A DNA stretch of 52,126 nt, filler included, from Catajapyx aquilonaris (Eukaryota): the NCBI GenBank assembly GCA_000934665.2. It is 2 parts of 2 records of this genome, joined end to end, with 100 filler letters (N's around TTAATTAATTAA, not from the genome) between each part and the next. Parts side by side here need not be neighbours in the genome. Positions count along the whole stretch, not along the records: positions 26,049 to 52,126 come from JYFJ02005288.1; 1 more part is not named here. One strand, given 5' to 3'. Position 1 is the first letter of the stretch. Each line of letters opens with the position of its first letter. A model generated the notes under the pieces. That model ran no database searches. It saw only the letters and a list, made by a program, of their open reading frames with translations, and had not been told where the DNA came from. Below are positions 25,949-52,033 of the stretch, in pieces. Position numbers and translations under genes: made by a program.

Positions 25949-26048
25949 NNNNNNNNNNNNNNNNNNNNNNNNNNNNNNNNNNNNNNNNNNNNTTAATTAA
26001 TTAANNNNNNNNNNNNNNNNNNNNNNNNNNNNNNNNNNNNNNNNNNNN
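25949..26048. other. Scaffold gap (100 positions) with an embedded TTAATTAATTAA spacer
   Basis: N run with ttaattaattaa at 25993-26004. The left edge is a hAT-like MITE end (cagtggcggatccag) followed by poly-G. Confidence 0.95.
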
Positions 26049-28797: not shown

Positions 28798-31549
28798 CTA
28801 GAGGACCTGGATCTGGATTTCCACATATTCCTGATGTCCTACCTTCTTCCGATGCCGGTTCAATTCGCCTGTGCTTATAAAGCCTCTTCCACACAGCTGG
28901 CACTTGTATGGCCGCTCGGGCCGATGCACTCGCTTGTGCAGAAGCAGATCGGATTTGTACCCATAGCTCTTCCCGCATTCATCACACTTGTACTTGCCAA
29001 TATTATGGTTCACGAATCCATGCCGCTTGACTCTCTCTCTGGTACTGAAAGCCTTCCCACATATAGTGCAAGGAAATGGTGTCTCCCCAGTGTGAGACAT
29101 TGTGTGCACATCCAGAGAGTTCTTGATCCTGAAGCCCTTACCACAAACGAGACACAAGAATGGTCTTTCACCTGTGTGGATCATGAGGTGGGCTTGCAAG
29201 CTTGCCTTTGATGTAATTATCTTGCCACATACTTCGCACTCGTATAATCTTTTGCCAATGCGGCAACTTTTCCCTGTGCTTTTTTCTGAATCTGCCACAT
29301 CCCTTCTATTTGCGGTAGGATTCCTTCTTTTCGGACCTTCACTACTTGAATGTATCCTCTTTGAGTGCAATTCCAGGCCCGTCTTTCCAAAAAATGAATC
29401 ACCACACTCCTCACACTTGTATGGTTTAGTTTCTGGGTGCTGGGTCCTACGGTGCATCATATATGGTATTCTCAGCCGGAATGTCTTATGACACACGTTG
29501 CACTCGTAGATCTTTTCACCAGTGTGACCATTCCTGTGGTCAGTCATGGACTGCTTCGAAGAATACGTCTTCCCACATATATCACACTGATGAGTCTCTT
29601 TCGGGAAATTGGGATCATGAATCTGTTGGTGTCTACTCAAGTGTTGAACCTGTCGAAATCTATCCCCGCAAGTCTCGCACTGGTATGGCCTTTCCCCAGT
29701 ATGAATCATGAGATGTTTCCTCAGACCATATCTGGTAGAGAAAGTCTTGCCGCAATATGTGCATGGGGCTGGGTTCACTCCTTCGTGAGTCCCTGTGTGC
29801 CTGTTAAGTTTTCTAGCAGTGTCGAATTCTTGCCCGCATGTTTTGCACTTGTACAGCCTCTCCTCAGTACCGTGAATCCCTGTATGGCTGCTAAGTTTTC
29901 TAGCACTGTGGAATGCTTCCCCGCATGTTGTGCACTTGTACGGCCTCTCCCCAGTATGCAGCCTTTCATGAGCCAAAAAAGTGTGTTTCCACTGGAATAC
30001 CTTCTCACAATATTGGCAAGTTAGAATTTCTTGGCTGTAACGTTTTCGGTGATCTGCTGTCCTCTGTTGAGTCGGAACAGGCTTCTTCACTGCGGAAACA
30101 GGCTTCTTCACTGTGGAAACAGGCTTCTTCACTTCTGAAGCAGGCTTCGTCGCTGCCAAAACCACCTTGCGTGGACTAGGTTCTTTAAATTCTACCTGTA
30201 ACGAGAACAAGCCCTCAATGATATACAGTACAACAGCAGTAATACCTATCAGGGCATAAGAGAGTTACAATTTTTCTTCCACGTCCACTACGGTAGCCTA
30301 GACAAATTACGGGACAAACTGGCTCTCCCGTCTGTTGTCCAAAATAATCTTTTGTGATAAGCAAAACTAAACACTAATGGTGACTGCAATTTCTAAAAGG
30401 GCATGAAATATACATACCCAACCACATGCTTCACATTGATGCAAGTACTTTTCATTTATCTTGCAATTACCACCACACTCCTGGCAAATCTTAAATTTCC
30501 TATGTCTGTCGACATGTTTCATAATGTAATCCTTGCTGTTACTTGTGTAGCCGCAAGTACCGCAGGTGAAAATCTTGACCCGTCGGAATGGCATGCTGAG
30601 TTCTGAGGGCAGGTCGGGAATGCTGCCTGGTGCCTCCACTCTGATTGACTGACCAGGTTTGCTAAAATGTAGGAAAACATATAAATAATAATCTGCAGAG
30701 GCCTATAATTGTCATGATGCATTGCATCTAGGCATCAAACATACCCATCAGCAGTGTTAGACTCGGGAATCTTCAGGCCTGCTGCAGCAGCAATATAGCG
30801 AATGAGAGATGACTCTCTATTTTCAGCAGGTGCATCTTTAGTCACTTCTTCACCAGTTGTTCCAGTATCATTCGGTGAAACTAGTTTTCCTATGATTTCC
30901 TCTCCGACTGATTCTTCCGAGCTCCTAGTTGCTTGTGCGTCATTTGCTGGAGCATTTTCTTCTGCTGCAGGTGGTGGATCATTTTGCTTCACTGCTTGGT
31001 TCATCTGGTTTGGCAGCTTCCGAGTCACTGTAACAAATATTAAGATGGACTTTTGGTTGTTGACTCATATCTGTCAGGTAAGAAACACAACATGCAAGGT
31101 TCATTTGCCTCTCAAGTGAAAGTGATCCAATCAAACATTTGCGGCTGTATGATCGCATAATGAATATGTTCCGGAACAAATGGGATTATTTTTCATATTG
31201 CCTCATAATATTTGACAATATCTTCAACCAGACACCTTTGTGTAACTTCTTGATAGGTGCGTACCTCTGTGTGGCAAATTCTGCATGGGAAATGCATCTT
31301 CCTTGAGAGCCATTGACTTCTTCCCTGCATTTGTCCCTTTCCCTTTCTTTCGACTGGGCACAACAAAATCTGAGTCAAGGAAGTGCTCCGAGCAGACTTT
31401 GGACTCGTCGGGCTTCAGGATGGCAGACATCCAGAGGGCCCTCGTGTGTTGGTCGGATGGAAATGGGTAGAAAGTTGTCCCATCATTGTAGCTTCCATTG
31501 TGGTGAGGGCAGGACGTGATGCAGCACTTGTAGCGAAGACCTGTCTGGG
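28798..31549 (-). CDS. THAP-domain + C2H2 zinc-finger protein (gene B, ~14 fingers)
   Basis: Exons 31549-31265 (THAP: CCITSC...FP...W...VCSEHF...AFP), 31027-30745, 30661-30418 and 30195-28798 (13 C2H2, HTGERPY linkers). All junctions are GT-AG with phases 1,2,0 in frame. The start codon is uncertain; a candidate 49-nt exon lies at 31740-31692. Confidence 0.88.
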
Positions 31550-32489: not shown

Positions 32490-35400
32490 TCAACCTACAG
32501 ACATGTTAATAATAATCTCCTGCTCATTTAGCTCACCTATCTCACATTCCTCCTCACTTTTCTCCGCTAATTCTTGTTCTTTCTTTGCATGTAATTTCAT
32601 ATGAAGAGTGCATGCATTTCTCTGAATAAAACCCTTCCCGCACACGGGGCATGAAAAAGGGCGCTCCCCAGTGTGCACCATTCTATGGTTCTTCAGTTTT
32701 CCCTGCGACACGAACCCCTTGTCACATATGTCACACTGGAAAGGCTTTTCACCAGTATGAATCCGGTTGTGCATGACCAAACTTGTACTAGTCTTGAAAA
32801 ACTTTCCGCACGTTTTGCACACATGGGGTCTCTCCCCATTGTGAGTCCTCATGTGAGAAGTCAACTTCCATTTTGAGCCACACAGCGCCCCACATATCAT
32901 GCAAGTTAGTGGTGTCTCGCCTGCTCCTGAATTCTTCAATTCTTGATCGTGGGTCTTCACATGGTATACGCATGAAGATTTGTAAGTAAATTGCTTCCCA
33001 CACAAACCACACTCAAAGGGCTTCTCTCCTGCATGCATCCAAAAATGTTGCTCTAAAGAGGTCTTGAGCCGAAATTTCTTGGAGCATATGTCACACTGGT
33101 AAGGTCTTTCTCTAGAATGTGTACCTAGATGGGATTTAAGCTGAAACCTTTCACAGAAGGTCTTGCCACATATGTCACACTTGTATGGTCTCTGTCCGGT
33201 GTGGATCATTCGATGCCGAGCAAGCTTCGATCTTTTGTTGAACACCCTATTGCAAAATTCGCAGGTGCTCAGCTTCATCTGCCTAGCCGCATGTTGTTTG
33301 TTATGGTAAAACATACTTCGCCTGCTGGAAATTTCTTCTCCGCATGTTTTACACTTGGTTGGAAACCCAGTGTGGGTCGCCATATGAATTTTCAACATCC
33401 GCCTTGTTTGAAAGTTCTTACCACAAGTGTCACACAAGAATTTCTTACCTTCGGTATGCGTTTTGTTATGCATTTTCCACATAATTTGTGTCACAAACAT
33501 TTTGCCACATATTTCGCACATATAAGGTGGAGGATCCGCATTACTCTCATGATTTATGGCCATATGTACAGATAATTTTGATTCGGATGCAAATATTAAA
33601 CCACAAGCGTCACACACAAAACCTTTCTCTTCTGGAGTATGCTTATCATCACATTCGGTATGAATCTCACGTTTGCCACTTTTACGTGCGCCTTTGGCCA
33701 CTCGTTTTTGCGATTTCCTATAGTGTGTACTTCGATGGGTAGCCAAGCTTCTAAACTTTTCAAACGCCTTGTCACACACAATACATTTATATTTCTTCTC
33801 AACAGGTGGCTGATCCAGGCCACTCGATTCCTCACGTTCTGTCTGCTCGCTAGAACCTTGTGGAGGATCATTGACTGCTCTTGAAGACCTGCAAAAAGAC
33901 AATGGATATTCAGTATTCAAGTCATGAGATCAAAATGCTTGTTTTGAAGTAACAGATATTCACAAATTAATATTTCCTGTCCAGTGCAGTTACAGTTACT
34001 TAATGCAGTGTACGTAATCATTTGCAAAAAAAAAAAAAAGGCTCTCTATTATATTGACTTGCCACTCACCCATTCTCGTTTGTCACAATCGAAGTGTAAT
34101 CATGCTCAGTGCCTTCGCCTTGGATAATGACTTCACTCTGAATAATGACTTCTGCATTTTCCTGTTCATTTTCCGATTCATTTTCTGGTTCCTTTTCCGA
34201 TTCTTTCTCTGGATCCTTCTCTGGTTCATCCTCCAACTTATTTCTGATCGGCTTTGGAGAAGTTGTGCTGAGCTTAGACGGTTGCTCAGGAGCTTTGAAA
34301 ATAATTCCTTCTCTTGGTTTTTCAACCTTCTGAGTGTTCCCTGCTGCATTATTGCTTGATTTCTGTGGATTCTTCTGCACTTTGCTTGGCTTAGCTGAGA
34401 CAGAGTCCTTGTTGACAGGCACCAATGTCACTAAAATAAAAGAGTTGACTTGTAATTCAATGAATACAGAAACTCTATTTCGGAACAAAAATTTAGCCAC
34501 CCAGTAGCCAGTGCCAGTTTATATGGGAATCACATTTTTCACGAGATGGATTGGCAGCAGAGTTGGGCAAGTCAAATGTATTTGAAACATAGCCAAATCC
34601 AGTTACTGCTAACTAGTAAGCAGTACAAGCTATCACATTAAAAGGGAACGTTACTTCAAAAATACTTTCTAACAGTATAACAATTATTAAGGAAAGAAGG
34701 AAAATGCTTAATGATACAGTACATTGCCTTGCCGGGTAACAAATTAATTAAACTCTATACCAACATTGTGTACGCAAAACAGGATGAAACCATGCAATAG
34801 AAGGCATTTTTAGGAATCATGAATATTATCCAAAACCAGTTCAAGTGCATGACCTTACATTATTAGAGCACACGCTTATGGTACATTCAAAATTCACATT
34901 ATTCATAATCCCCCTCCATATGAGTACATTTTCATGACGGCACAAACAATTGCGTTGTAAAGATATCAAATTAACTACCAATGCCAACTGCCATGTGAAT
35001 CCCATCAAATTGGCACCGCATATCAAACAGGGATCTAAGTGACATGATCACTCTTTGAATCAGTTATGGAAAACTACAAAGTCAAATACACATTTTAGTA
35101 GCAACAACAGATAAAAATGCAGCTGGAATCACAGTCACTTACCTCAATTTTATGAATCTTAGGAAAGACGTATAATGCTTTCCTACTCCACCGTTACTCC
35201 ATTTATGATCAAAATGTCTCTTAGATCGCTGTTTAATGAGCATGACCTTCTTCAGGATGGGTCCCCATGTGATCTTCAATGTAAGATTGTTACATGATCT
35301 TCCTGCACGCATCCCCTCCTCAACGACTCTAGCGTGGGTCTTCCTATATTTGTACATCCTACGCCAAACCCTTTTCCAACATGTCATACACTCCATTGGA

Positions 35401-37072: not shown

Positions 37073-40000
37073 ATGCCGAAGACGCCGGGAGGGATTATGT
37101 GTGCCGCTCGGGGCTGCAGAGAGTACTGCAGGAAATCACGTCTCTCGTTTTTCCGTTTCCCGAGGGCCCCAGAAAGGTATACACACTTCATACGTTCCAT
37201 ATGCTGGAAATACTTTGTACCGTGCAATATGTTAATAATGATATGACGTTCTATGGCAGATGCAGGGTGTGGTGCGTCGCCTGTGGAAGGAAGGATCTCG
37301 TGGGGAAGGATCCACTTCGTTTGAACCGAAGTTACCGCCTCTGCAGCTCCCATTTTGAGAGGTGGGCCTTTATGAACCCGGAAAGTCCCTGCAGCCTCGT
37401 CCACTATGCGTATCCCACCATCTTTTCCCATGGCGGAGGAACTGGTGGTTCTGGTGAGTGGTTTGGGGACACTACTGCACATTATTATGCGTATGAGCCT
37501 GGCCATGACGTAATCTATCGTGTTGAGTGTCAGATATAGTACTCTATTCAGGACTGACTCCTTGGACATATTTCATACTACACCACTGTAGTGGAAGAAA
37601 CAATATAAAGCAACTACAGCATTCTATTCATTTGCGGCAAGCACGTCGTACGGTACTGTGGCTCTACAGAAGCAACAAGTATGCATCAATAATAAATTGC
37701 ACACTCCAGCAGCAATTTAAACATTGCCAATTATTACTAAACGTTTCCATTATTCTAGATGAAATCATGGCACAACCTATGGATGAACCTGCGGCATACA
37801 CTTGGGATGAACCTGCACCACAACCTACGGATGAATCTGCAGCACAACCTACGGATGAACCTGCAGCACAACCTAAGGATGAACCTGCAGCACAACCTAA
37901 GGATGAACCTGCAGCACAACCTAAGGATGAACCTGCAGCACAACCTAAGGATGAACCTGCAGAACAGCCTACGGATGAACCTGCAGCATGCCTTTGGTAT
38001 GAATCTGCAGCACAACCTACGGAGGAACCTGCAGCATGCCCTTGGTATGAATCTGCAGCACAACCTACGGATGAATGTGCGTCACAACCTGTGGATGAGC
38101 CTGTGACGCAACCTAAGGATGAAATACGGAGGAAGCGTGTGGATGTGGATGGACCTTGTGAGGCACTACCAACCACTGCTGACCATCAACTGCCTACTGA
38201 TTCCCTGCTGGCTGGCACAGGTGCAGTAATGGCATATATGACTCACACTTGAACCTTTGCAGATATTGTAAGGTGTTCATATTCTGCATAGGCAATGAGG
38301 TGTCGCACGTTAAAGTAGAAATCTTAAACTGTAACGTAACGGTACCAAAAAAAAAGAGAGATCTTGATGCACTTAACGTTGATGATAATCCCAATTGAAA
38401 AAATTTGAGAGTCACAATAGGGATGTAAATATCCACTATATTATTTTGTTATGGACTGGAAATATTTAGCCAAAAGGCCAATTGTTGCAAGTACAAGAAG
38501 ATCACATAATAAACATGGCATGATTGCGCCTCACATTCCGATCACACTCATTTAGTTGGACCCCTGTCCGTCAGAGGACAGGAGCATTGTCTTGGAGTGT
38601 GGTGGCGACACCAGACGCAGAGCGGCCAGTTCCCACACTACTCGGCTGGTCAATATTATTTTTAACCGTCGCTGGAACCTGTGGCTGGAACTGTTGTGGA
38701 ATAATTTTGGAATATTTCGACCCACCGAAATATTTGGGGGCTGATATTTCCTGCAAAGTTGGCCCAGTAAGCATCCCCAGCCGAATATTACCAACATGGC
38801 AACTGTTGGGCTGCGTTTGGCCCAGACTAGGCCTGGCTTGGAATCATTTAGACATGTTGCATTCCGCTTGATGCTCTCTACTTGTGGGTAATGGACATTA
38901 TTTCACTTGCAGGAATGGGGGGTCGCAGCAAGTGTTGCATCGCGACGTGTCCCAACCACTCGAGAGTGCACCAGAGCGATGCCAGCGAGTTCTTCTTCTT
39001 TCCGTCTGATCAGAAGCTGCGGGTCCTCTGGATGGTTGCCATCTTGAACCCGGACGTGTTCAAGGTTTGCTCCAGGCACTTCCTCGACTCTGACTTTGTT
39101 GAGCCTTACGGTTGCAGGTACGAACCCAGTGAACCCAGGCATAAGGTGCTCAAGCCTGGAGCCTTTCCAAGCCAGAAACTTCCGCACACAGGTAAGGTCA
39201 GGGTTGTCTGAAGGGGAATGGTGAGAATCAGTAATGGGAAGGAGTATTTGGTCAGGTTTTGTGGGGGGGTTTCGCATTGTTCTTGTCAATTTTTGGAAAG
39301 ATTGAAGGCCTAAAACAGCCGTTTATGGTAATCGACTGGTCCGCATGCGATGAAAATGCATTTTGTCATTTATTTCGCACCAGGAACCATCAATTTTCGT
39401 GCATCATACACAGTTGCATATGTGAAATTATGGTTATGCAATAGTCCACTATAGTATTACAAGAACTGATAAAAATTTGCAGCACACAAATAATAGCCTT
39501 GACTGTAAAGTACAAGTCCAGCATTATTTTCAGTTGTTTGATCCCTGATTTGATTAAACTTGATTGCAGTGACCCTGATGCAAACAGCACCACCAGTGAA
39601 AGGGACAAAGCCAAGCCCTGTGTCGCCTGCAACGACAGTGACTTCCAATGCACAAGTTACCCGTTCAAATGAGAAAGCGGCAAATACCAGTCATATCAGA
39701 ATAATAGACGAATCAGTGTGTCAATTGACCCCTGCAGCCTTCAGATTAGTTGGCAAGCAAGAATGTGTACCGTCAAAGGCTAAGAAAGTGACACTTGTAC
39801 AGAATGAAGTTAGATTATGTAGTACTGGAGCAGTTTCATCAGAAGCTACAGGGAAAGTGCTGCAAATCGCAAAGTGTCCGGCTGGTAATGGGTATGTATT
39901 GTGTGACACCCCACTTCACAGTGGGTAGGTATTATGTTGACACTATAATTGAAAGGGATGTATTCAGACGGGGCATGTTGTGGGGAAAACATTTATGCCT

Positions 40001-42075
40001 TATGGACTTCAGAGCATTCATATGACTGCTGTGCAAATTTTAATGTCATTTCATGCCATTGCTTCAGTACACCAAATGTGCCGAGAGCATCAACCAGAGC
40101 AGGAGGAGCTGATTTGAAAACTGCAGGACCGAAAGCAAGATCAGTTCTGAAGGTACCAGCAAAGGCCTCTAGGATGGTAATGAAAGCTGCACCTGATGGC
40201 GGAGAAGCTGCGTCCATATTGGTGGTAGAAAGAATGCCTATTGAGATGGAAGTTGCTTCATTTCTGACCCATCCAGTTTCATCAGCAGTGCCAGAAGAAG
40301 AGGAGTTGGAAATCAGGAAGAAGCAACAGAAGAGTCATGCTGACCGGTAGGTACTTGGCTTGAAAAGCACTGTTTTGAAAAGGAGCTACATGAACTAGAG
40401 TACAAGACAATCCTGATGAGATGCAATTCGCACTACTCACATCACACGACTTAGGCATCACTGAAATTATCTCAATAGTCTGTGATGAAATCGGGACAGT
40501 GGTAGTAAAGCGACTATTCAGATTTTCAAATTTTAACCTGCCAGAATTAATATAATGCACCTTGTGAATAATGCCACTCGTGTTGGAGGATGCAGTCAAA
40601 ATTTTTGTCAAGTTGTTGCCACTTTGCCAATAACGAAGAACAAAGTTTATGGCTTGATTGCCGGAGTTTTTAGTTGTGTAAGACTTGACTGATGAAGTGC
40701 ATTTAAGGTGTCTTGGTAGTTAACTGATTTAACATATTCTTGTTACAAGTATTGCTTCAAGCGGTCTACATCTTGTTTCAGCATCGTCCAATGTGCTCCT
40801 GCTGCAACTGCGTCACCCAAGAAAGACATCATGCCAAAACGATTTCCCTGTGACATTTGTGACCAGACATTTTGCAGTGAGGGCATACTGAAGAGGCATC
40901 GCATGATGATGCACATTGTACCTACAAACTGCGTAAACTGTGGTAAGATGTGCAATTTGCCAAGCAACAAGAAGGTTTGTAATTCCTGCAGAGTGGCTAA
41001 GAAGGCATACGAAGCCAGTACATCAAAGCGATTTTTGTGTGACATTTGTGAGCATACATTTTTAAGTGAAGGCATATTGAACAGGCATCACTTGATGATG
41101 CATGTGTTGCCCACCAAGTGTAAGGCCTGTGGCAAGATGTGTAAATTGCCAAGAAGCAGGAAGATTTGCCTTTCTTGCAGAAATGCTAAGACGACATCCC
41201 AAGGGAAGAAAGAAAGGTACTTGTGCGATACTTGTGGGGAAACTTTCGAAAGGGTTACAATTTTAAGGGCTCATCTGAGGATCTTTCATCGAAATGTGAA
41301 ACACCTTCCCAGAAAAAAGTTTGTGTGCGTGTTGTGTGGAAAGTCCTCTACCAACAAGGAAACGTTTCTCCGTCATTGCCAGAGCCATAAGGAGAAGCTT
41401 GTTAATCAGTGTCAGGTGTGTGGCAGGCGATTCCGGCTGTTAGCACATTTGTTGGGGCACATGAAATCCCATTCGGTGAAGCATGCTGTGACTTATGAAT
41501 GTAAAACTTGCGGTAGACATTTGAAAACCAAGAATTCCTTGAAGCAGCACAAGAGGATGCACATGACTGAGAGGCCGTACAAGTGCAACAAGTGTGAAAA
41601 GGCATTCAAGGTGAAATATAACTTGATTGTGCACTACAGATCCCACAATGATGAAAAGCCATTTGCATGTGGGATGTGCGAAAAGACTTACAAAACGAAA
41701 TCGAGTTTGCTCGTGCATTTCCGACTTCACACGGGGGAGAAGCCATTCAAATGCTCTTTCTGTGACAAATCCTACAGGCTCAAACAGGCCCTAGTTCTTC
41801 ATGAGAAATCGCACACTGGAGAAAAACCATTTCCCTGCACTGAATGCACTCAGGCTTTTAACACTAAAGAGAAGTTGAAGCGGCATGGCTTTCGTCACGG
41901 TTTTGGAAAGTACAAGTGTGACATATGTAGTAAGACCTATGGATACAAATCATTTTTGCTTATGCACATGCGAGTGCATCGTTCAGAGCGTCCCTTCAAA
42001 TGTAAGCTGTGTGACAGGGGTTTCATAAGTACAGGCGAATTGAATAGGCACATGAAAAGGGCACATGGTTATTAG
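37073..42075 (+). CDS. Double-THAP + C2H2 zinc-finger protein (gene C, 12 fingers, ~977 aa)
   Basis: Exons 37073-37176 and 37260-37453 (canonical THAP: CAARGC...FFRFP...R|CRVW...CGR...LCSSHF...AYPTIF), 37759-38220 (DEPAAQPK repeats), 38913-39191 (second, compact THAP), 39570-39891, 40068-40346 and 40782-42075. All GT-AG, with phases 2,1,1,1,2,2 in frame. Confidence 0.88.
37782..38124 (+). repeat. Coding 24-bp tandem repeat (DEPAAQP[K/T])
   Basis: Unit gatgaacctgcagcacaacctaag, about 14 copies, inside exon 3 of gene C. Confidence 0.92.
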
Positions 42076-45130: not shown

Positions 45131-45555
45131 TGGCGTGGCGTGGGGGGGGGGGGGNGGGGGGGGGGGGGGCGCAAAATTTGGTATTAAAAAAAAAACACAT
45201 TCTTTGAGATGCGAAATTTCGCACGGGTCCCTCAGAATTTTCGACGATTTTCATTACGATACATAGGCTTTTCCGATTACTGTTCGGACAAAAAAGTTTA
45301 GACACCCTGTATATCGTTGTTAATGCAGCAAACCCATTCAATATTTTGGATATTTACCCTCATCTTTACTCCGCTTTCTTTGGGAAAATATCATTTGATT
45401 CTCCCTTCCGAGAATATTCATTCCTTTACACCAGCATTAAATGCATTTTCTTGGATTACATTAGTGTTTTCTTAATTGATACAATACGTGTGCTTGGTGG
45501 GGGGCGCAGTACTTCCCTTGCCCCTTGCGCTGGCAACCCACGCTATACGCCACTG
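45131..45555. mobile_element. Degenerate hAT-type MITE
   Basis: Left end tggcgtggcgtggg followed by poly-G; right end cccacgctatacgccactg. ctggtat flanks both ends. Confidence 0.55.
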
Positions 45556-45719
45556 CTGGTATATCCTGCCAGAGAGGCTTCCCTCCGAACAAGAGAGGTT
45601 GAATGGTGGCTCTCAACTGTCAGGATAAAATTATTACTTTAATTCATTGGGTATCAATAACAGTATGTATTTTCGGACGATATAGGCAATCCGCAGTTTT
45701 ATTACTTTCTTACATAACA

Positions 45720-46295
45720 CTTTTAATCCTGCGCACTTGATAACTGCATATCCAAATAAAGCGCAAGACGCTGAGGAGCCATCCGAAAATAATTAAAGCA
45801 TGATCACCGGGAAGAATCTAGAAAAAGGCTATGTTGCATTAATAGTGCGCGGCATGCCTTATTTGGTGGGTATTTCGGCATTGTGATGGATCATCACGAC
45901 CACTACATCCAAGTGTTTTGTTAATTTTTTTTGTCACTGGTAGTGGCAAGTATACTGGTAGCAGGCTTTCGCTTGTGCTCAGGAACTACAAACCACTCCG
46001 GAGGTCGAAAGGTCAGCGCGAACCTGTAGTGGTCACTCATGTTCTTCTTCATGCCCGAGAAGTGGTCTGGCAGGCGGGGATAGTCGTGGGCGATCACCAA
46101 ACTGCACTTTGGGAGCAGCAGTGATAAGACGTCATCAGTGATACGGGGTAAAGTTGAATGTAAAAATTGCAATGTTATATTTACATCTTCAAGATATTTA
46201 ATACATTTTAACAAATTACTGGAAAAAAGTGGAATATACGTATACACTTCACGGAGTGATGGAAAGTGTTTACATCCATTGTGCTCAGTGCCCAT
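45720..46295 (-). pseudogene. Truncated / internally deleted ionotropic receptor pseudogene
   Basis: 45983-46120 encodes LLPKCSLVIAHDYPRLPDHFSGMKKNMSDHYRFALTFRPPEWFVVP, nearly identical to both intact IRs. The ORF stops at 45921. Frameshifted M3-like remnants (IIFGWLLSV / LFGYAVIK) follow. Confidence 0.75.
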
Positions 46296-46567
46296 ACAGT
46301 GTTTCTGCGGCGCTTACCTAGGGGCGTCATAGCCATTATCCCACGAGATAGCATCGGAGCTATGCGAAAAGCCAACATACAGTATACTGCTGGAGTGCCT
46401 TTGCTCGGTGCTGTTGCGTTGGCCTCAATCGATGTCCGCAGACCTTGGCATTGAGTATAGGTTGGGGGGAAATATTTTAAAATGTCGCCTTAAATAATAT
46501 AATTTATCCAATGGGACGGTAAGGAGTAAAAAGAAAGAAAGAACTACGACAGTTACATGGGCAGACA

Positions 46568-48583
46568 CTACGGGAGATACATGAATGGAGGAGAAGAGTC
46601 CTGGGGAGAAACGGTACGAAAGGAAAATCCGGGATCCGTACATTTGCATGCCTTGGATTTCACAATTTCGTATCCCAAGAGGAGGGTACTGACCACCCAT
46701 CCGGACACGACTAGTCCGAAAGGGCCGTACAGTTTCTCCTTGCTCAGAGGCTCATCATTCTCTTCTTCTTCCCCCACATTTCTGATGACTTCTCTCTCTG
46801 GATTTTGGCGCCGTGTGTTGCGAAGGGTACGCAGGGAACGAAGGTGATTGCGGTGGACAACCATCTTGAAAAAATGGCCAAACAGACCGCTCTCCATTAA
46901 GCGCATGGAATACTTGTGGTGGGTGGCGAAGTCCGGTTGGTCCTTCAGTAGTGCCGCTCCCAAGTAGGAATTCAGCGTCACTTCGGTCCTCTTGAAGTAA
47001 GGTATCTGGTCATATTCGTCGGCGTCTTTCCACACTTCCATCTCCAGTAAAACTTGGATTCCCAGGCATGCAGTCTCTGGTTGCAGACTCCTCTGGAAAC
47101 ATTCCTTGTACGAAGGGAGGAGAACTAGGTCCTTCTTGATGGCCTGGTGCGTCGGGAGGTCCAGGTCACGAAGCACGATGGCGTAAGCCAATCCGCTCAG
47201 CTGCTCTGCCATCACTGCGTACTTTTCGGAGAGCAGGCCTTCAAAAGTGTCTGGCAGGACTTCTTTGAGAGGTACAGCAACGAAGGAGAAGACGGCCTCC
47301 TGGTACCCACAGGTGATGACCATGGCGAAGAACAGCCAGAAGGACGCAAACACTCTGAACGGGTTCGAAGATGGGACAGGTCTGTTGGGCAGCTGCTCCA
47401 GGAAGGACTGGAGGAGGTATTGACAGGCGAAGAGAAACGGGTTGGAAGGACAGTCCTGGACAAAGCCTAGTCTGGGTTTGAGGAGGAACCAGGCAGCCAC
47501 TATTCCGATCAGGGATCCAAACGAGATGCACAGCCACACGGAGCCTTGGTACGGCCAGAATATGGTCTTCCAGGACCAGACGGGACCAGGGTGGGCTCTG
47601 ACGAAGGTGAATCCGGAATAGGCGTAGGGAAACGCGAAATTGACGTGTGTCATGGCGTCTGCTTGAAACAGCGATACGATCAAAATGTCAGCCCGTCCCT
47701 TCATGAGATCTCCGTTGTAGCCAATCCAGGTTCCGTTGGCCATTCGACTATTGTAAATTTCATCCGGAGTGACGTCCTTCAAGTAGCAATCCCACTTGTA
47801 CTGCAGCTGCTTTCCGCTGACGTAAAAGCTCCTTTCGTCGTAATCCAGACTCCACAGCCCACCTTTTCTGACCTTCTCTTCAACCTGTTTCTGACTAATG
47901 TCTCTGAAAAAAGGAATCTTGATATGCCTGTTGTTGAATTTGATTGTCATGTCGGGAAACAGTTCTTCCTCTCCCATTGACATCTCAGGATATGTTCCCA
48001 GCAACTTCACCTCCGGATCACCATTGTCGCAGTAGAAGCACAAGGTGTGCAGATCCACCGCACCAGGACGAGTGACACTCCCTGTGACCTCGACCTTGAA
48101 CTTCCACCCTCTGGACACGTCCTCCAGCAGGGCCTCGTGTTTGGACGACGATTCCCTGACCCAGATGACGAAGTAGTCCCTGAAGGACTCTACGGCGATG
48201 GTGAATGCGTGGAAGAGAGCGACCCTCCTGAAGCCCTCCAGAGTGTCACTAGTCACCAAGTGCACCACGCACTCACCGGCCTTCTTCCTCCTCTCGAACC
48301 AGTCCCACAGGTCCCTCACACTCTTGTGCGAGGGAACCACGAACCACTCCGGAGGTCGAAAGGTCAGCGCGAACCGGTAGTGGTCACTCATGTTCTTCAT
48401 CATGCCCGAGAAGTGGTCTGGCAGGCGGGGATAGTCGTGGGCGATCACCAGACTGCACTTTGGGAGCAGCTGTGACGTGACCTCACTGGTTAAATGGGGC
48501 ACGAGATTTTCAGTTGAAGGTACAGCATGGTGCAGAGGAGCACGAATCAATAAGAGCGCTATAATCCATCGTGACGGATCCAT
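46568..48583 (-). CDS. Intronless divergent ionotropic receptor (IR, iGluR-related chemoreceptor), 671 aa
   Basis: Signal peptide; S1 lobe (NGTWIGYNGDLMKGRADI...FAFPY); pre-M1/M1 (WKTIFWPYQGSVW); M2 (FRVFASFWLFFAMVITCGYQEAVFSFVAVP); S2 lobe (LMESGLFGHF); M3 (PLSKEKLYGPFGLVVSGW). Confidence 0.92.
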   Translation of the reverse strand: MDPSRWIIALLLIRAPLHHAVPSTENLVPHLTSEVTSQLLPKCSLVIAHDYPRLPDHFSGMMKNMSDHYRFALTFRPPEWFVVPSHKSVRDLWDWFERRKKAGECVVHLVTSDTLEGFRRVALFHAFTIAVESFRDYFVIWVRESSSKHEALLEDVSRGWKFKVEVTGSVTRPGAVDLHTLCFYCDNGDPEVKLLGTYPEMSMGEEELFPDMTIKFNNRHIKIPFFRDISQKQVEEKVRKGGLWSLDYDERSFYVSGKQLQYKWDCYLKDVTPDEIYNSRMANGTWIGYNGDLMKGRADILIVSLFQADAMTHVNFAFPYAYSGFTFVRAHPGPVWSWKTIFWPYQGSVWLCISFGSLIGIVAAWFLLKPRLGFVQDCPSNPFLFACQYLLQSFLEQLPNRPVPSSNPFRVFASFWLFFAMVITCGYQEAVFSFVAVPLKEVLPDTFEGLLSEKYAVMAEQLSGLAYAIVLRDLDLPTHQAIKKDLVLLPSYKECFQRSLQPETACLGIQVLLEMEVWKDADEYDQIPYFKRTEVTLNSYLGAALLKDQPDFATHHKYSMRLMESGLFGHFFKMVVHRNHLRSLRTLRNTRRQNPEREVIRNVGEEEENDEPLSKEKLYGPFGLVVSGWVVSTLLLGYEIVKSKACKCTDPGFSFRTVSPQDSSPPFMYLP

Positions 48584-49106
48584 TGTTGTCAGGGTGTTTG
48601 TTCACTAATCACGAAATGAACTTTCTGGAGAAGTAATGTTTTATGGTGTCTAAATTGCACTCACTAATTAGAAAATCATACACTTAGACATGACATGAAA
48701 AATCAACCTTTAAGCACACTTTCTGCGCAAAGTCTCGCTATTATGTGAACAGAATAATTGTGGTGCCAGTTCGCTTCTGGGACAACCGCCCTACTGCGTT
48801 CAAATGGTTTGCAAGTGACCTTACACCTTTACGAAACAACCACAGCAGGTATGACGTGTCTGTCTATAGAGTCTAGTCAACGTGAAACGTGACAGTAGTG
48901 ACACACTCTAGTGATGAAGGTGCTGATTAAACTGTAATTTACGTGCTGCCAAGTGGAAAGCAGCGAATGTAATAAGAATGCGGTGTATCATTACCGAATA
49001 ATTAATTCAAGAACCCTGTCTGTGTCTTAGCTAGTATACACTTTAGCACCGACAGATTTGTCAGGAATCGTTTTGACATGTGAATAAATTATCGGAACTT
49101 GATTTA

Positions 49107-51194
49107 TCAAAATATCGGGTCGCGTACAACACGTCCTCTGGTGCTCACATCGCAATTATGAAAGCATTGTTGTGCGCGCCTAATATTCTGTACAGGGGCA
49201 GCCTCCACAGCAATTATTTTTAACGTCCGATTTCTCTTCCCGGTTTGCTTACAAGAATCGACACTTGTGCGCGTCACAATCTCGCATCCCAACATGACGA
49301 TGCAGATTATCCACCCTGCAACAATGAGTCCAAATGGACCGTACAGCTTCTCCTTGGTCAGTGGCCTGCAATCTTCTTCGCTGTCTCCCAACTCCGGCTG
49401 CTGACCTTCTACCCCAGCAGGAGAGGCACGGATGGCACTCAGGGATCGAAGGTGGTTGCGATAGGTCACCATTTTCAAGAAGTGACCTCCGAGGCCTGCC
49501 TCAGTGGAATGCATGGTTGACCCATGACCAGTCATGTACAACGGGCTGTCCTTCGGGTAAGCCACGCCCATGTATATGTGGAGACTTTGCTCCGTCTTGT
49601 CGTAGAACGGGACACGTCCCGACTCGTCACCAAACTTCCACATTTCCAGTTCCATCAGAGCTTTTAATCCCAAGCAGGCCGCCTTGGACTCCAGTGTCAT
49701 CTGGAAGCACTTCCTGTACGACGGGTGGAAAACCAGTTTCTTCATAATTGCTTGGTGCTTCGGAAGGTCCAGGTCTCCAACCAAAATGGAGTAAACGAAC
49801 GCGTTCAGTTGCTCAGCTCCAACTTTGTAATTCATGGAGAGAAGATCAGCGAATGTGTCTGGCAGAACCTCCCTGGGCGGTACGGCCACGAAGGAGAAGA
49901 CGGCCTCCTGGTACCCACAGGTGATGACCATGGCGAAGAAGAGCCAGAAGGCGACAAACACTCTGAACGGGTTCGAAGATGGGACAGGCATGTTGGGCAG
50001 CTGCTCCAGGAAGGACTGGAGGAGGTATTGACAGGCGAAGAGAAACGGGTCGGAAGGACAGTCCTGGACAAAGCCTAGTCTGGGTTTGAGGAGGAACCAG
50101 GCAGCCACTATTCCGATCAGGGATCCAAACGAGATGCACAGCCACACGGAGCCTTGGTACGGCCAGAATATGGTCTTCCAGGACCAGACGGGACCAGGAT
50201 ATCCTCGTAAGAAGTAGACTCCGGAGTACCCGTATGGAAACGCAAAGTTAACGTGCGTCATGGATTCCGCGGTAAGCAAGGAAATGATCATAAACTCAGC
50301 TCGGCCTGACATCAGTTCCCTCATGAAACCGTTCCAGCTTCCGTTGCTCATCCGGCTGTGGTATATTTCTTCCGGATTTAGGCTTATGTAGTAGCAGTCC
50401 CATCTGTAATTCCTGTAATTTCCGTACACGTACAGAATAATCTCATCCAGATCCAGGCTCCACAGCCCATCTCTTCTGACCCTTTCTTCCACCTCCTTTT
50501 GGCTCACGTCTCTGTAAAATGGAAGCTTGAAGTGTCTGTTGTTGTATTTTGTTGTCATGTCCGGAAACAAAACATTTCTTGTCTTCATTGATATCGAGTC
50601 AGGATACCTACCCAACAACCTGACTTCCGGATCACCATTGTCGCAAAAAAAGCACAAGGTGTGCAGATCCACCCCACCAGGACGAGTGACACTCCCTGTG
50701 ACCTCGACCTTGAACTTCCACCCTCTGGACACTTCCTCCAGCAGGGCCTCGTGTTTGGACGACGATTCCCTGACCCAGATGACGAAGTAGTCCCTGAAGG
50801 CCTCAACGGCGATGGTGAATGCGTGGAAGAGAGCGACCCTCCTGAAGCCCTCCAGAGTGTCACTAGTCACCAAGTGCACCACGCACTCACCGGCCTTCTT
50901 CCTCCTCTCGAACCAGTCCCACAGGTCCCTCACACTCTTGTGCGAGGGAACCACGAACCACTCCGGAGGTCGAAAGGTCAGCGCGAACCGGTAGTGGTCA
51001 CTCATGTTCTTCATCATGCCCGAGAAGTGGTCTGGCAGGCGGGGATAGTCGTGGGCGATCACCAGACTGCACTTTGGGAGCAGCTTCAATATTCCATGAC
51101 TAACAAGATCCTCCACTGTCTTATCGAGGTACTGGTCATAACACTGACACTCCGACACCACGAACCACACGAGGACGACAAGTTTAACCGTCAT
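49107..51194 (-). CDS. Intronless divergent ionotropic receptor (IR), 695 aa
   Basis: Paralog of 46568-48583 with the same motifs. Likely ATG at 51194 (MTVKLVVLVWFVV signal peptide), downstream of the ORF-track start. Confidence 0.92.
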   Translation of the reverse strand: MTVKLVVLVWFVVSECQCYDQYLDKTVEDLVSHGILKLLPKCSLVIAHDYPRLPDHFSGMMKNMSDHYRFALTFRPPEWFVVPSHKSVRDLWDWFERRKKAGECVVHLVTSDTLEGFRRVALFHAFTIAVEAFRDYFVIWVRESSSKHEALLEEVSRGWKFKVEVTGSVTRPGGVDLHTLCFFCDNGDPEVRLLGRYPDSISMKTRNVLFPDMTTKYNNRHFKLPFYRDVSQKEVEERVRRDGLWSLDLDEIILYVYGNYRNYRWDCYYISLNPEEIYHSRMSNGSWNGFMRELMSGRAEFMIISLLTAESMTHVNFAFPYGYSGVYFLRGYPGPVWSWKTIFWPYQGSVWLCISFGSLIGIVAAWFLLKPRLGFVQDCPSDPFLFACQYLLQSFLEQLPNMPVPSSNPFRVFVAFWLFFAMVITCGYQEAVFSFVAVPPREVLPDTFADLLSMNYKVGAEQLNAFVYSILVGDLDLPKHQAIMKKLVFHPSYRKCFQMTLESKAACLGLKALMELEMWKFGDESGRVPFYDKTEQSLHIYMGVAYPKDSPLYMTGHGSTMHSTEAGLGGHFLKMVTYRNHLRSLSAIRASPAGVEGQQPELGDSEEDCRPLTKEKLYGPFGLIVAGWIICIVMLGCEIVTRTSVDSCKQTGKRNRTLKIIAVEAAPVQNIRRAQQCFHNCDVSTRGRVVRDPIF

Positions 51195-52033
51195 GTTTAT
51201 GCACGCTTGTGCTGTCGTGTGGCACAGTGTATATACTCTCTTGTTGCATATTATGTCAAAGGGCCGCCTCAATTTATTATGATAAAAGCAGCACATTTTC
51301 GGATTCTGAGAAATATGACAAAAGTCACTCTCTGTCCACTAGGCGTTAATATGGAAAACTGTGGTTAGCTGTTTACACAAGACTACTTTACCCTGATGGC
51401 AATTCTGCAAATTGACATTGAGCAGCTTATGACGTCGATGGACAACAACGAATGTATTTTTCTTCGCGTCCAGATCAATCACGCTAAAGTAATACGCGCA
51501 ATCGATACAACTATATGACGGTCTTTTGGTACGCGTCTCTCTCTCTTCATATATCAAGTGCATAATATATTAAGCTCTACCTGTTATACTGATTGCACTG
51601 ATTGGTTCTTCTGGCAGACCAATATATGGCTCCTAATTGACTGGAGCTCAGACATGGAGGCGTTAACTTTAATATATTTGGCATAAAAAGATTGATTCCA
51701 ATATTGCAATACATTTTGAAATAGCTAAAATGGTTATTCGGCAATTTTTATCTAAAAATATTCCAATACATGCGGCCTCTACCTGCAAGATCCACTCGAG
51801 TACGGTAATAATAATAATTGCGTCAAGCTTTTGACATAGTTCATATAGGACCAATTGCGTATATTACCAAAGACATTAAAATGACTACAGTTAGGCAGTT
51901 GCGTAAACAATAAGACCCAAGTTAAAAGTAGAGATTAAAAATTAATACTTCCATACGGGATTTATTAGTAGCCTGTCATGCCTATATAAGGTAATTTTAG
52001 TTTTTCAAAGTACCGGTACAGCACAGACAAGTA

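What the first reader, a model, noticed from the sequence alone, without database searches (positions are those of the whole stretch)
46568..51194. Ionotropic receptors with constant and variable blocks: segmental gene conversion sparing the ligand-binding lobes
Seen: 48061-48471 vs 50675-51085 (N-terminal domain) differ at only 3 of 411 nt by my count. 47280-47590 vs 49888-50198 (M1-pore-M2) differ at under 10 of 311 nt. Both blocks are near-identical at synonymous sites too. The signal peptide, S1 lobe, S2 lobe and tail are only about half identical or less in protein, and the boundaries are sharp (LLPKC...DPEV; PGPVW...FVAVP). Knowledge: S1 and S2 form the ligand-binding clamshell of iGluR/IRs. 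Inference: ongoing conversion homogenises the assembly and channel modules while specificity modules diversify, a constant/variable design in a chemoreceptor array.
Basis: partly seen in the sequence, partly recalled or inferred. Interest (0 to 1): 0.75.

Follow-up and report, generated by a model that had tools for sequence, protein, structure and literature searches.

The report
Gene-conversion islands in tandem chemoreceptor genes
Two neighbouring smell/taste-type ion-channel genes of an arthropod keep two stretches almost letter-for-letter identical by copying them from one another while the rest has drifted far apart, a clean example of a known process.

Summary
Two single-exon iGluR/IR-like genes lie in tandem on the minus strand: A at 46568-48583, B at 49107-51194. 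They differ at 3 of 411 nt in an N-terminal block and 7 of 311 nt in the pre-M1/M1/pore/M3 block. Synonymous divergence is 0.011 and 0.064 in the blocks, against 1.5-1.9 (saturated) in S1, S2 and the tail. No shuffle of 10,000 gives such identical runs.

The blocks have raised GC3 (0.74-0.81 against 0.60-0.63), a mark of repeated conversion. Contigs from four public runs of one sample carry the N-terminal block at about 9-13 times single-copy k-mer depth, joined to other flanks. So more copies exist elsewhere in the genome.

Best reading: recurrent, region-limited gene conversion between paralogues, as in fugu protocadherin clusters.

- The variable lobes are under purifying selection on average (dN/dS 0.17-0.30). 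Positive diversification is not shown.
- The 5' borders are razor sharp; the 3' borders are graded.
- A "constant/variable design" held by selection remains conjecture.

This scan had already noted similar homogenised IR blocks on other pieces of this genome. Verdict: real, a new member of a known kind, moderate interest.

The parts
46568..48583 (-). Gene A: uninterrupted 671-codon iGluR/IR-like ORF
   Evidence: ORF list. 69.6 % protein identity to B over 641 aa. Weak Pfam Lig_chan-Glu_bd match.
49107..51194 (-). Gene B: uninterrupted 695-codon iGluR/IR-like ORF, read from the ATG of MTVKL. The ORF stays open upstream to 51296.
   Evidence: ORF list. PDB phmmer: residues 283-438 match GluN1 at E 6.9e-11. 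AF2 model pLDDT 79.9. Foldseek E about 1e-21 to full-length iGluR chains.
48061..48471 (-). Block 1 in A, in the N-terminal alpha/beta domain. The perfect 280-nt core is 48192-48471.
   Evidence: 3/411 differences from B. dS 0.011. GC3 0.81. Logan contigs on it have depth 235-359 against 17.6-53.5 on the listed flank contigs.
50675..51085 (-). Block 1 in B (residues about 37-173). The perfect core is 50806-51085.
   Evidence: Covers model elements E43-48 to E161-167. The contig 50806-51011 has depth 442 in run X3.
47280..47590 (-). Block 2 in A: pre-M1, M1, pore helix, M3
   Evidence: 7/311 differences. dS 0.064. GC3 0.74.
49888..50198 (-). Block 2 in B (residues 333-438): helices H339-343, H348-372, H383-395, H408-437
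   Evidence: Aligns to GluN1 M1-M3. Flank contigs stop 18-30 nt inside its borders, at 49906 and 50169.
47591..47935 (-). S1 lobe of A (variable)
   Evidence: Placed through the A/B alignment from B's S1, residues 218-332, which aligns to GluA2 S1S2 cores at Z 22. dS 1.6, dN/dS 0.17.
50199..50543 (-). S1 lobe of B (variable)
   Evidence: VIA alignment, model range 218-585 against S1S2 crystal cores. 59 % protein identity to A.
46832..47272 (-). S2 lobe of A (variable)
   Evidence: dS 1.9, 53 % protein identity.
49440..49880 (-). S2 lobe of B (variable)
45972..46151 (-). Relic of a third tandem copy: the N-tip plus the first 150 nt or so of block 1, then no further IR-like sequence
   Evidence: blastn: 94 % over 148-153 nt. 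tblastn: 85 % over 60 aa to A and 76 % over 66 aa to B, with nothing else IR-like in the window. Borders.

Best explanation
A and B are old tandem duplicates of a single-exon, divergent ionotropic-receptor-type gene. They lie 2.6 kb apart in direct orientation. Two segments are repeatedly overwritten by interlocus (ectopic) gene conversion: about 0.4 kb in the N-terminal domain and about 0.3 kb covering pre-M1 to M3.

Proposed mechanism (inferred, not shown): a break in one copy is repaired from a paralogous copy. The copied tract stops where the partner has become too different. The converted islands therefore stay identical and stay convertible, while the ligand-binding lobes, M4, the tail and the signal peptide keep their old divergence.

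The donors and recipients are probably not only A and B. A wider set of paralogues seems to carry the same N-terminal block.

Shown here: the mosaic itself, the synonymous-site contrast, the GC3 rise, the extra k-mer depth, and the alternative flanks.

Inferred: the repair mechanism, its recurrence, and what sets the borders.
For: 1. dS is 0.011 and 0.064 in the blocks against 1.5-1.9 elsewhere. The sliding window shows pS of 0 inside the blocks and 0.5-0.8 outside.
2. 0 of 10,000 shuffles reach the 280-nt or 147-nt identical runs.
3. GC3 is 0.80-0.81 in block 1 and 0.74-0.77 in block 2, against 0.60-0.63 in S1 and S2-to-tail. GC at fourfold sites is 89/117 against 91/149 in A (Fisher p 0.012) and 91/117 against 78/147 in B (p 3e-5). 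Yu et al. used the same signature for fugu protocadherins (PMC1852091, section 7 read).
4. Protein constraint cannot explain block 1. Among 65 distant homologues its region is the least conserved part: mean identity to B is 0.11, against 0.17-0.24 for S1, block 2 and S2.
5. Logan contigs from four runs of one sample carry block 1 at depth 359, 334, 442 and 235. The medians of the listed flank contigs are about 38, 27, 34 and 25. Flank contigs end 18-30 nt inside the block borders. Several different continuations leave the blocks at 48402, 48473, 48476, 47419, 47945 and 49911.
6. The graded 3' shoulders and the clusters of 2-3 adjacent differences inside block 2 fit nested tracts of different ages and donors.
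7. Both ORFs are intact, and dN/dS is 0.17-0.30 in the variable parts.
8. No antisense protein family reaches Pfam's cut-off and no Rfam family explains nucleotide-level constraint.
Against: - Only two full copies and one relic could be read. No genome is held, so no multi-sequence GENECONV test or block-wise tree could be made.
- The copy number comes from mean k-mer depth of contigs. The tool warns that this is not a copy number. All four runs are one sample, and it may be the sample the window was assembled from.
- No contig bridges a whole block, so the linkage of each block to its flanks rests on the assembly. That assembly is scaffolded and has gaps (Ns at 20152, 25949-25992, 26005-26048 and 45155).
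- The GC3 contrast could partly reflect codon or amino-acid usage of these domains.
- Three of the four borders lie near domain junctions. A purely neutral tract-end model does not predict that.
Confidence: 0.8

Rival explanations
1. Assembly or polishing artefact. The blocks are multi-copy repeats, and the assembler or gap-closer wrote a family consensus into both genes, or joined flanks of different paralogues across a block. On this view the real A and B are less alike, or are differently composed, than the window shows.
For: - The window is a scaffolded assembly with gaps.
- Block 1 is about 9-13 times single-copy depth.
- No contig crosses a block with 31 nt on both sides, so short-read linkage across 280 identical bases is weak.
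Against: - A and B still differ at 3 and 7 sites inside the blocks.
- At 48131 both genes carry a letter that is not the one in the deepest contig of run X1. So the window is not a plain majority consensus.
- All four junctions in both genes keep the frame and give intact proteins of 671 and 695 aa.
- The high mean k-mer depth over 206-324 nt shows, independently of the assembly, that many near-identical copies with different flanks exist in the reads. The phenomenon would survive even if the flanks were mis-paired.
Confidence: 0.07
2. One-off chimeric origin rather than recurrent conversion. The genes were built by a few unequal crossovers, by segmental shuffling, or by recombination with a cDNA of a paralogue, and the blocks are simply the youngest pieces.
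For: - The 5' borders are sharp.
- Croset et al. 2010 propose that single-exon IRs arose by retroposition and non-allelic homologous recombination (PMC2924276, passages read).
- A truncated third copy shows that the array is being rearranged.
Against: - Two internal islands need at least four breakpoints in each gene. A crossover would make a whole side identical, not an island.
- The graded 3' shoulders fit repeated events better.
- The raised GC3 and GC4 fit repeated events better.
- The roughly 9-13-fold depth with several alternative flanks fits repeated events better.
Confidence: 0.08
3. Nucleotide-level constraint. An overlapping antisense gene, an RNA element or a regulatory element freezes every site in the blocks.
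For: Long antisense ORFs cover both copies of block 1 (48047-48475, and 50661-51368, which runs on past the block) and overlap part of each copy of block 2 (47147-47470, 49725-50078).
Against: - The antisense ORFs have no Pfam family above cut-off. There is only one weak Scm3 hit at 18.5 bits, below its cut-off of 24.3.
- No Rfam family matches.
- Such ORFs are expected opposite GC3-rich coding sequence (my own knowledge).
- Constraint does not explain the extra copies with other flanks.
- Constraint does not explain zero change at 92 synonymous sites while neighbouring sites are saturated.
Confidence: 0.02

Closest known systems
Regional gene conversion in fugu clustered protocadherin genes (Yu et al. 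2007, PMC1852091; abstract and section 7 read)
   Same: - Tandem receptor-type paralogues.
- One part is more than 99 % identical at the nucleotide level while the rest is 60-80 % identical.
- The boundary is discrete.
- GC3 is raised in the homogenised part.
- The presumed specificity domains are spared.
   Different: - There, one 3' region of a variable exon is shared by up to about 18 genes of a subcluster. Here there are two separate internal islands in single-exon ion-channel genes.
- Only two full copies could be read here. The further copies are inferred from depth.
- The animal and the protein family are different.
Divergent, single-exon ionotropic receptors in tandem arrays (Croset et al. 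2010, PMC2924276, passages read), and the intronless IR expansions of early hexapods with many pseudogene fragments (Manni et al. 2019, PMC6938034, passages read)
   Same: - Uninterrupted ORFs in tandem.
- iGluR fold with a short N-terminal domain.
- Loss of the S1 arginine.
- A nearby gene relic.
   Different: Those papers describe birth-and-death, retroposition and unequal recombination. The word 'conversion' occurs 0 times in either main text.
GENECONV signals between Drosophila chemoreceptor paralogues, including IR orthologous groups (Almeida et al. 2014, PMC4122928, passages read)
   Same: Interlocus conversion between IR paralogues has been inferred before.
   Different: - It is reported there as a small amount with negligible effect on family-size estimates.
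- In the passages I read there is no description of domain-sized islands or of blocks shared across a family. Its supplementary table S8 was not opened.
Earlier notes of this scan on other pieces of the same genome (e1-7596103, e1-7506767, e1-7594312, e1-7595281)
   Same: As those notes describe them, they are homogenised N-terminal or GC-rich blocks shared by 2 to 16 neighbouring IR-like genes with diverged bodies.
   Different: - They are unchecked AI notes on other DNA.
- A look-up with the two block sequences and with gene A found no look-alike stretch in the scan's index.
- As the notes are worded, none mentions a second island over the channel core.

Membership tests
Ionotropic glutamate receptor superfamily (iGluR/IR) | Domain order S1 - M1 - pore loop - M3 - S2 - M4, with a bilobed ligand-binding core | tested here: met
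   - PDB phmmer: B residues 283-438 against GluN1 at E 6.9e-11.
- AF2 model with pLDDT 79.9.
- Foldseek E about 1e-21 to full-length GluN1, GluK2 and GluA2 chains.
- VIA: Z 22, rmsd about 3 A over about 243 residues to GluA2 S1S2 cores, model range 218-585.
Ionotropic glutamate receptor superfamily (iGluR/IR) | Pfam Lig_chan / Lig_chan-Glu_bd above the gathering score | tested here: not met
   Lig_chan-Glu_bd scores 17.7 bits (A) and 26.1 bits (B) against a cut-off of 30. Lig_chan scores 17.8 bits against 30.8, in B only. The sequences are too divergent for the profiles. The fold and PDB evidence above decide the matter.
Divergent (non-antennal) IRs in the sense of Croset et al. 2010 | Single-exon coding region, genes in tandem arrays | tested here: met
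   Uninterrupted ORFs of 671 and 695 codons lie 2.6 kb apart on the same strand, with a relic of a third copy. Whether the 5' and 3' ends are spliced could not be tested, because no RNA holder was listed.
Divergent (non-antennal) IRs in the sense of Croset et al. 2010 | Loss of one or more glutamate-contacting residues (the S1 arginine) | tested here: met
   The position aligned to the arginine of the GluN1 chain is S311 in B and D in A. At least 90 % of the 67 aligned sequences have R in that column. That this arginine contacts the ligand is my recollection.
Divergent (non-antennal) IRs in the sense of Croset et al. 2010 | Expression in chemosensory neurons, dependence on a co-receptor | not testable with these tools
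   No RNA run was listed.
Regional interlocus gene conversion (concerted evolution of a gene segment) | Near-identity at synonymous sites confined to a segment while the rest of the paralogues is old | tested here: met
   dS is 0.011 and 0.064 against 1.5-1.9. 0 of 10,000 shuffles reach the identical runs.
Regional interlocus gene conversion (concerted evolution of a gene segment) | Raised GC at silent sites in the converted segment | tested here: met
   GC3 is 0.74-0.81 against 0.60-0.63. The fourfold-site Fisher test gives p 0.012 for A and 3e-5 for B.
Regional interlocus gene conversion (concerted evolution of a gene segment) | In the segment, paralogues within the species are closer to each other than to their orthologues in a sister species | not testable with these tools
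   - No genome is held.
- The nearest library protein is only 25 % identical.
- The metagenome scan found no relative.
Regional interlocus gene conversion (concerted evolution of a gene segment) | The segment is shared by more than two family members | tested here: inconclusive
   Block 1 contigs are at about 9-13 times the depth of flank contigs, and several alternative flanks leave the blocks. This is k-mer depth from one sample, and the other copies could not be read.

The most novel reading that the evidence does not exclude
The two islands could be a selected, family-wide constant scaffold. On this reading, a set of roughly ten IR genes or more shares one N-terminal domain, and a smaller set shares one channel core. 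Conversion would keep these parts in step so that every member stays compatible with a common partner subunit or gating machinery.

Selection would hold the tract ends at the domain junctions, so that each gene keeps its own ligand-binding lobes. That would be a protocadherin-like constant/variable architecture made without alternative splicing.

Three of the four borders lie at predicted domain junctions. Family-wide, the homogenised N-terminal domain is the least conserved part. A simple 'conserved parts keep converting' model does not predict that.
Probability: 0.2. Interest if true: 0.6.

Novelty: new member of a known kind. Interest (0 to 1): 0.35.

Why it matters
- **Evolution of the family.** A large, fast-evolving chemoreceptor family of an early-branching arthropod lineage may evolve not only by birth and death. 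Segment-wise concerted evolution also appears to play a part.
- **Gene trees.** Whole-length IR trees and duplication dates in such genomes will be misled, because a block tree and a lobe tree would disagree.
- **Assembly.** These genes are hard for short-read assemblers, so IR counts there may be wrong.
- **Function.** If the borders are held by selection, the islands mark the parts of an IR that must stay compatible within a family. That can be tested by domain swaps.

Tried and rejected
- **Whole-genome search.** No genome is held for this window, so all-family block trees and multi-sequence GENECONV/RDP were not possible.
- **Word-indexed protein search with gene A.** 7729 candidates, none at E <= 0.001.
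- **Full HMMER search with gene B.** 844 hits at E <= 0.001. The best is only 25 % identical, so there are no close paralogues or orthologues to use. The one named top hit is a springtail protein.
- **Metagenome scan with gene A.** 47 pattern matches, none confirmed.
- **Scan-index look-ups by sequence** (block 1, block 2, gene A): 0 windows each.
- **Expression.** No RNA holder was listed among the 5 runs, so expression is untested.
- **Bridging contigs.** No listed contig spans a block, and 329 further pieces were not shown. Linkage across the blocks is therefore untested.
- **Antisense-gene or RNA-element explanation.** No Pfam family above cut-off for the 4 antisense ORFs or the relic ORF, and 0 Rfam matches in 45500-51600.
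- **Positive selection on the lobes.** dN/dS is 0.17-0.30 and dS is saturated, so no claim is possible.
- **N-terminal domain as a remnant of the iGluR amino-terminal domain.** Full-length GluA2 chains align from model residue about 22 to chain residue about 110, but at rmsd 10-20 A. I did not fold the domain alone, so this stays open.
- **Literature.** Searches for gene conversion plus ionotropic receptors/tandem (13 papers), for at least three of gene conversion/chemosensory/ionotropic/concerted evolution (68 papers, 15 listed), and for gene conversion plus 'divergent IRs' (2 papers) gave no description of domain-sized conversion islands in IRs among the titles and abstracts listed and the passages I read. 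Subscription journals are not covered.

Full report
**What is there**

The last 6 kb of the window hold two uninterrupted ORFs on the minus strand. A is 46568-48583 (671 aa). B is 49107-51194 (695 aa from the ATG of MTVKL). They lie in direct tandem; the matching blocks are 2608-2614 nt apart.

Both belong to the ionotropic glutamate receptor superfamily:
- B residues 283-438 match GluN1 from the end of S1 through M3 at E 6.9e-11.
- An AlphaFold2 model of B, built on a 67-sequence alignment, has mean pLDDT 79.9 and pTM 0.69.
- Foldseek matches the model to full-length GluN1, GluK2 and GluA2 chains at E about 1e-21.
- VIA-align puts model residues 218-585 on GluA2 S1S2 ligand-binding cores with Z 22 and rmsd about 3 A over about 243 residues.
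- Pfam's own profiles stay below their cut-offs (17.7-26.1 bits against 30), so these are very divergent members.

The nearest protein in a 1.84-billion-sequence library is only 25 % identical. The one named top hit is a springtail protein.

The genes fit the picture of divergent IRs that Croset et al. 2010 draw (passages read). They are single-exon and in tandem. They lack the S1 arginine that at least 90 % of the aligned homologues keep: B has S311 and A has D. They also fit the intronless IR expansions of early hexapods described by Manni et al. 2019 (passages read).

**The observation**

The perfect cores are 280 nt (48192-48471 = 50806-51085) and 147 nt (47444-47590 = 50052-50198).

Over the whole codon alignment there are 485 differences in 1983 nt. 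None of 10,000 shuffles of those differences gives a run longer than 55.

| Region | dS | dN/dS or dN | Protein identity |
|---|---|---|---|
| N-tip | beyond correction | - | 4/36 |
| Block 1 | 0.011 | dN 0.009 | 134/137 |
| S1 | 1.6 | dN/dS 0.17 | 68/115 |
| Block 2 | 0.064 | dN 0.019 | 101/105 |
| S2 | 1.9 | dN/dS 0.18 | 79/148 |
| Linker, M4, tail | 1.5 | dN/dS 0.30 | 29/63 |

The signal-peptide region is unalignable (4 of 36 residues).

Only the 5' border of each block, in gene direction, is razor sharp. The 3' sides decay in steps.

**Mapping on the fold**

Block 1 (B residues about 37-173) covers strands and helices E43-48 to E161-167 of an alternating beta/alpha N-terminal domain. It stops before that domain's last beta hairpin.

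Block 2 (B residues 333-438) covers the short pre-M1 helix, M1, the pore helix and M3, and ends at the last turn of M3.

So three of the four borders lie at predicted domain junctions. M4 lies in the variable part.

**Why conversion**

- Identity at synonymous sites beside saturated neighbours excludes protein-level constraint.
- Block 1's region is in fact the least conserved part of the protein among 65 distant homologues. Mean identity to B is 0.11, against 0.17-0.24 for S1, block 2 and S2.
- GC3 is 0.80-0.81 in block 1 and 0.74-0.77 in block 2, against 0.60-0.63 in the lobes.
- At fourfold sites the contrast is 89/117 against 91/149 in A (p 0.012) and 91/117 against 78/147 in B (p 3e-5). 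This is the mark of GC-biased conversion that Yu et al. 2007 used for fugu protocadherins (section 7 read).
- No antisense protein family or Rfam RNA offers another reason for frozen nucleotides.

**Evidence from reads**

Five runs were listed. Four hold the region; all four are one sample of one study, kept as Logan contigs, and possibly the sample behind the assembly. Laid on 45500-51600, they show the following.

- Listed contigs on unique flanks have mean k-mer depths of 31-54 in X1, 19-37 in X2, 27-45 in X3 and 18-37 in X4.
- Contigs on block 1 have 359 (48074-48397, X1), 334 (X2), 442 (50806-51011, X3) and 235 (X4). That is about 9-13 times the flank medians.
- Block 2 bins are about 2-5 times the flanks.
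- Flank contigs end 18-30 nt inside the block borders (49906, 50169, 51056, 47298), as a k = 31 graph does where a repeat begins.
- Loose ends with different continuations leave the blocks at 48402, 48473, 48476, 47419, 47945 and 49911.

I read this as further copies of block 1, and at least one more of block 2, sitting elsewhere in the genome next to other sequences. The variable parts of A and B are near single-copy.

Caveats: the tool warns that depth is not a copy number; only one sample was available; no listed contig bridges a block; and 329 pieces and 20 loose ends were not shown.

A truncated third array member lies just downstream of A (45972-46151). It keeps the same 5' border and about 150 nt of block 1 at 94 % identity.

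**Against an artefact**

- The window is a scaffolded assembly with gaps, so the pairing of flanks across 280 identical bases needs long reads.
- But A and B still differ inside the blocks, and all junctions keep the frame.
- At 48131 both genes carry a letter other than the one in the deepest X1 contig.
- The multi-copy near-identity is visible in the k-mers independently of the assembly.

**Mechanism**

I infer recurrent ectopic conversion among tandem and probably dispersed paralogues. Tracts would be a few hundred bases long and would end where heteroduplex would meet diverged sequence.

Once the lobes had diverged they fell out of reach, while the islands remained identical and therefore convertible. 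The graded 3' shoulders and the clusters of 2-3 adjacent differences inside block 2 fit nested tracts and several donors.

Whether selection also sets the borders is open.

**What is known**

- Regional conversion with a discrete border and raised GC3 is described for fugu protocadherin subclusters.
- GENECONV signals between Drosophila IR paralogues have been reported, as a minor effect (passages read).
- Neither Croset 2010 nor Manni 2019 uses the word 'conversion' in the main text.
- Notes of this scan describe similar homogenised blocks in other IR arrays of this genome. They are unchecked AI notes, and my sequence look-ups did not connect them to these blocks.

**Verdict**

The feature is real. 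It is explained by a known process and is a new member of a known kind. It has two tidy features: two separate islands, and borders that follow domain junctions. It also carries a practical warning for IR phylogenies and for short-read assemblies.

Noticed in passing
window 45972-46151 (-), ORF 45921-46295: Relic of a third tandem IR copy. Only the N-tip and the first 150 nt or so of block 1 remain, at 94 % identity to A and B, and 126 of 129 in the core 45991-46119. tblastn finds no other IR-like sequence in the window.
   Followed up: partly
window 46562-47911 (gene A variable parts) against 48614-49906 and 50169-50583 (gene B): Contigs from the four runs of one sample differ from the window at 1-3 % of sites in gene A's S1, S2 and tail, and they differ from each other. 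For example, there are 19 other letters in a 671-nt contig of X2. The contigs on gene B's unique parts show 0 differences over 1293 and 415 nt. Gene A may be strongly heterozygous, or may have a near-identical extra copy.
   Followed up: no
window, B residue 311 (about 50262-50264) and the aligned residue of A: Both genes lack the S1 arginine that at least 90 % of the 67 aligned sequences keep, and they differ from each other there (S in B, D in A). This hints at non-amino-acid ligands and at different ligands for the two genes.
   Followed up: partly
window 48047-48475 (+), 50661-51368 (+), 47147-47470 (+), 49725-50078 (+): Long antisense ORFs lie opposite both copies of both blocks. None has a Pfam family above cut-off. 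They are probably a by-product of GC3-rich codons.
   Followed up: yes
window 28798-30210 (-), 32490-33920 (-), 40831-42075 (+): Three long ORFs full of C2H2 zinc-finger repeats, judged by eye from the translations and not scanned. They lie upstream of the IR pair.
   Followed up: no
window 37527-38252 (+): An ORF with a tandem peptide repeat of the DEPAAQP(K/T) type, and an equally open antisense frame. It was not examined.
   Followed up: no
window 20152, 25949-25992, 26005-26048, 45155: Assembly gaps, 90 N in all. The single N at 45155 lies about 0.8 kb beyond the IR relic.
   Followed up: no
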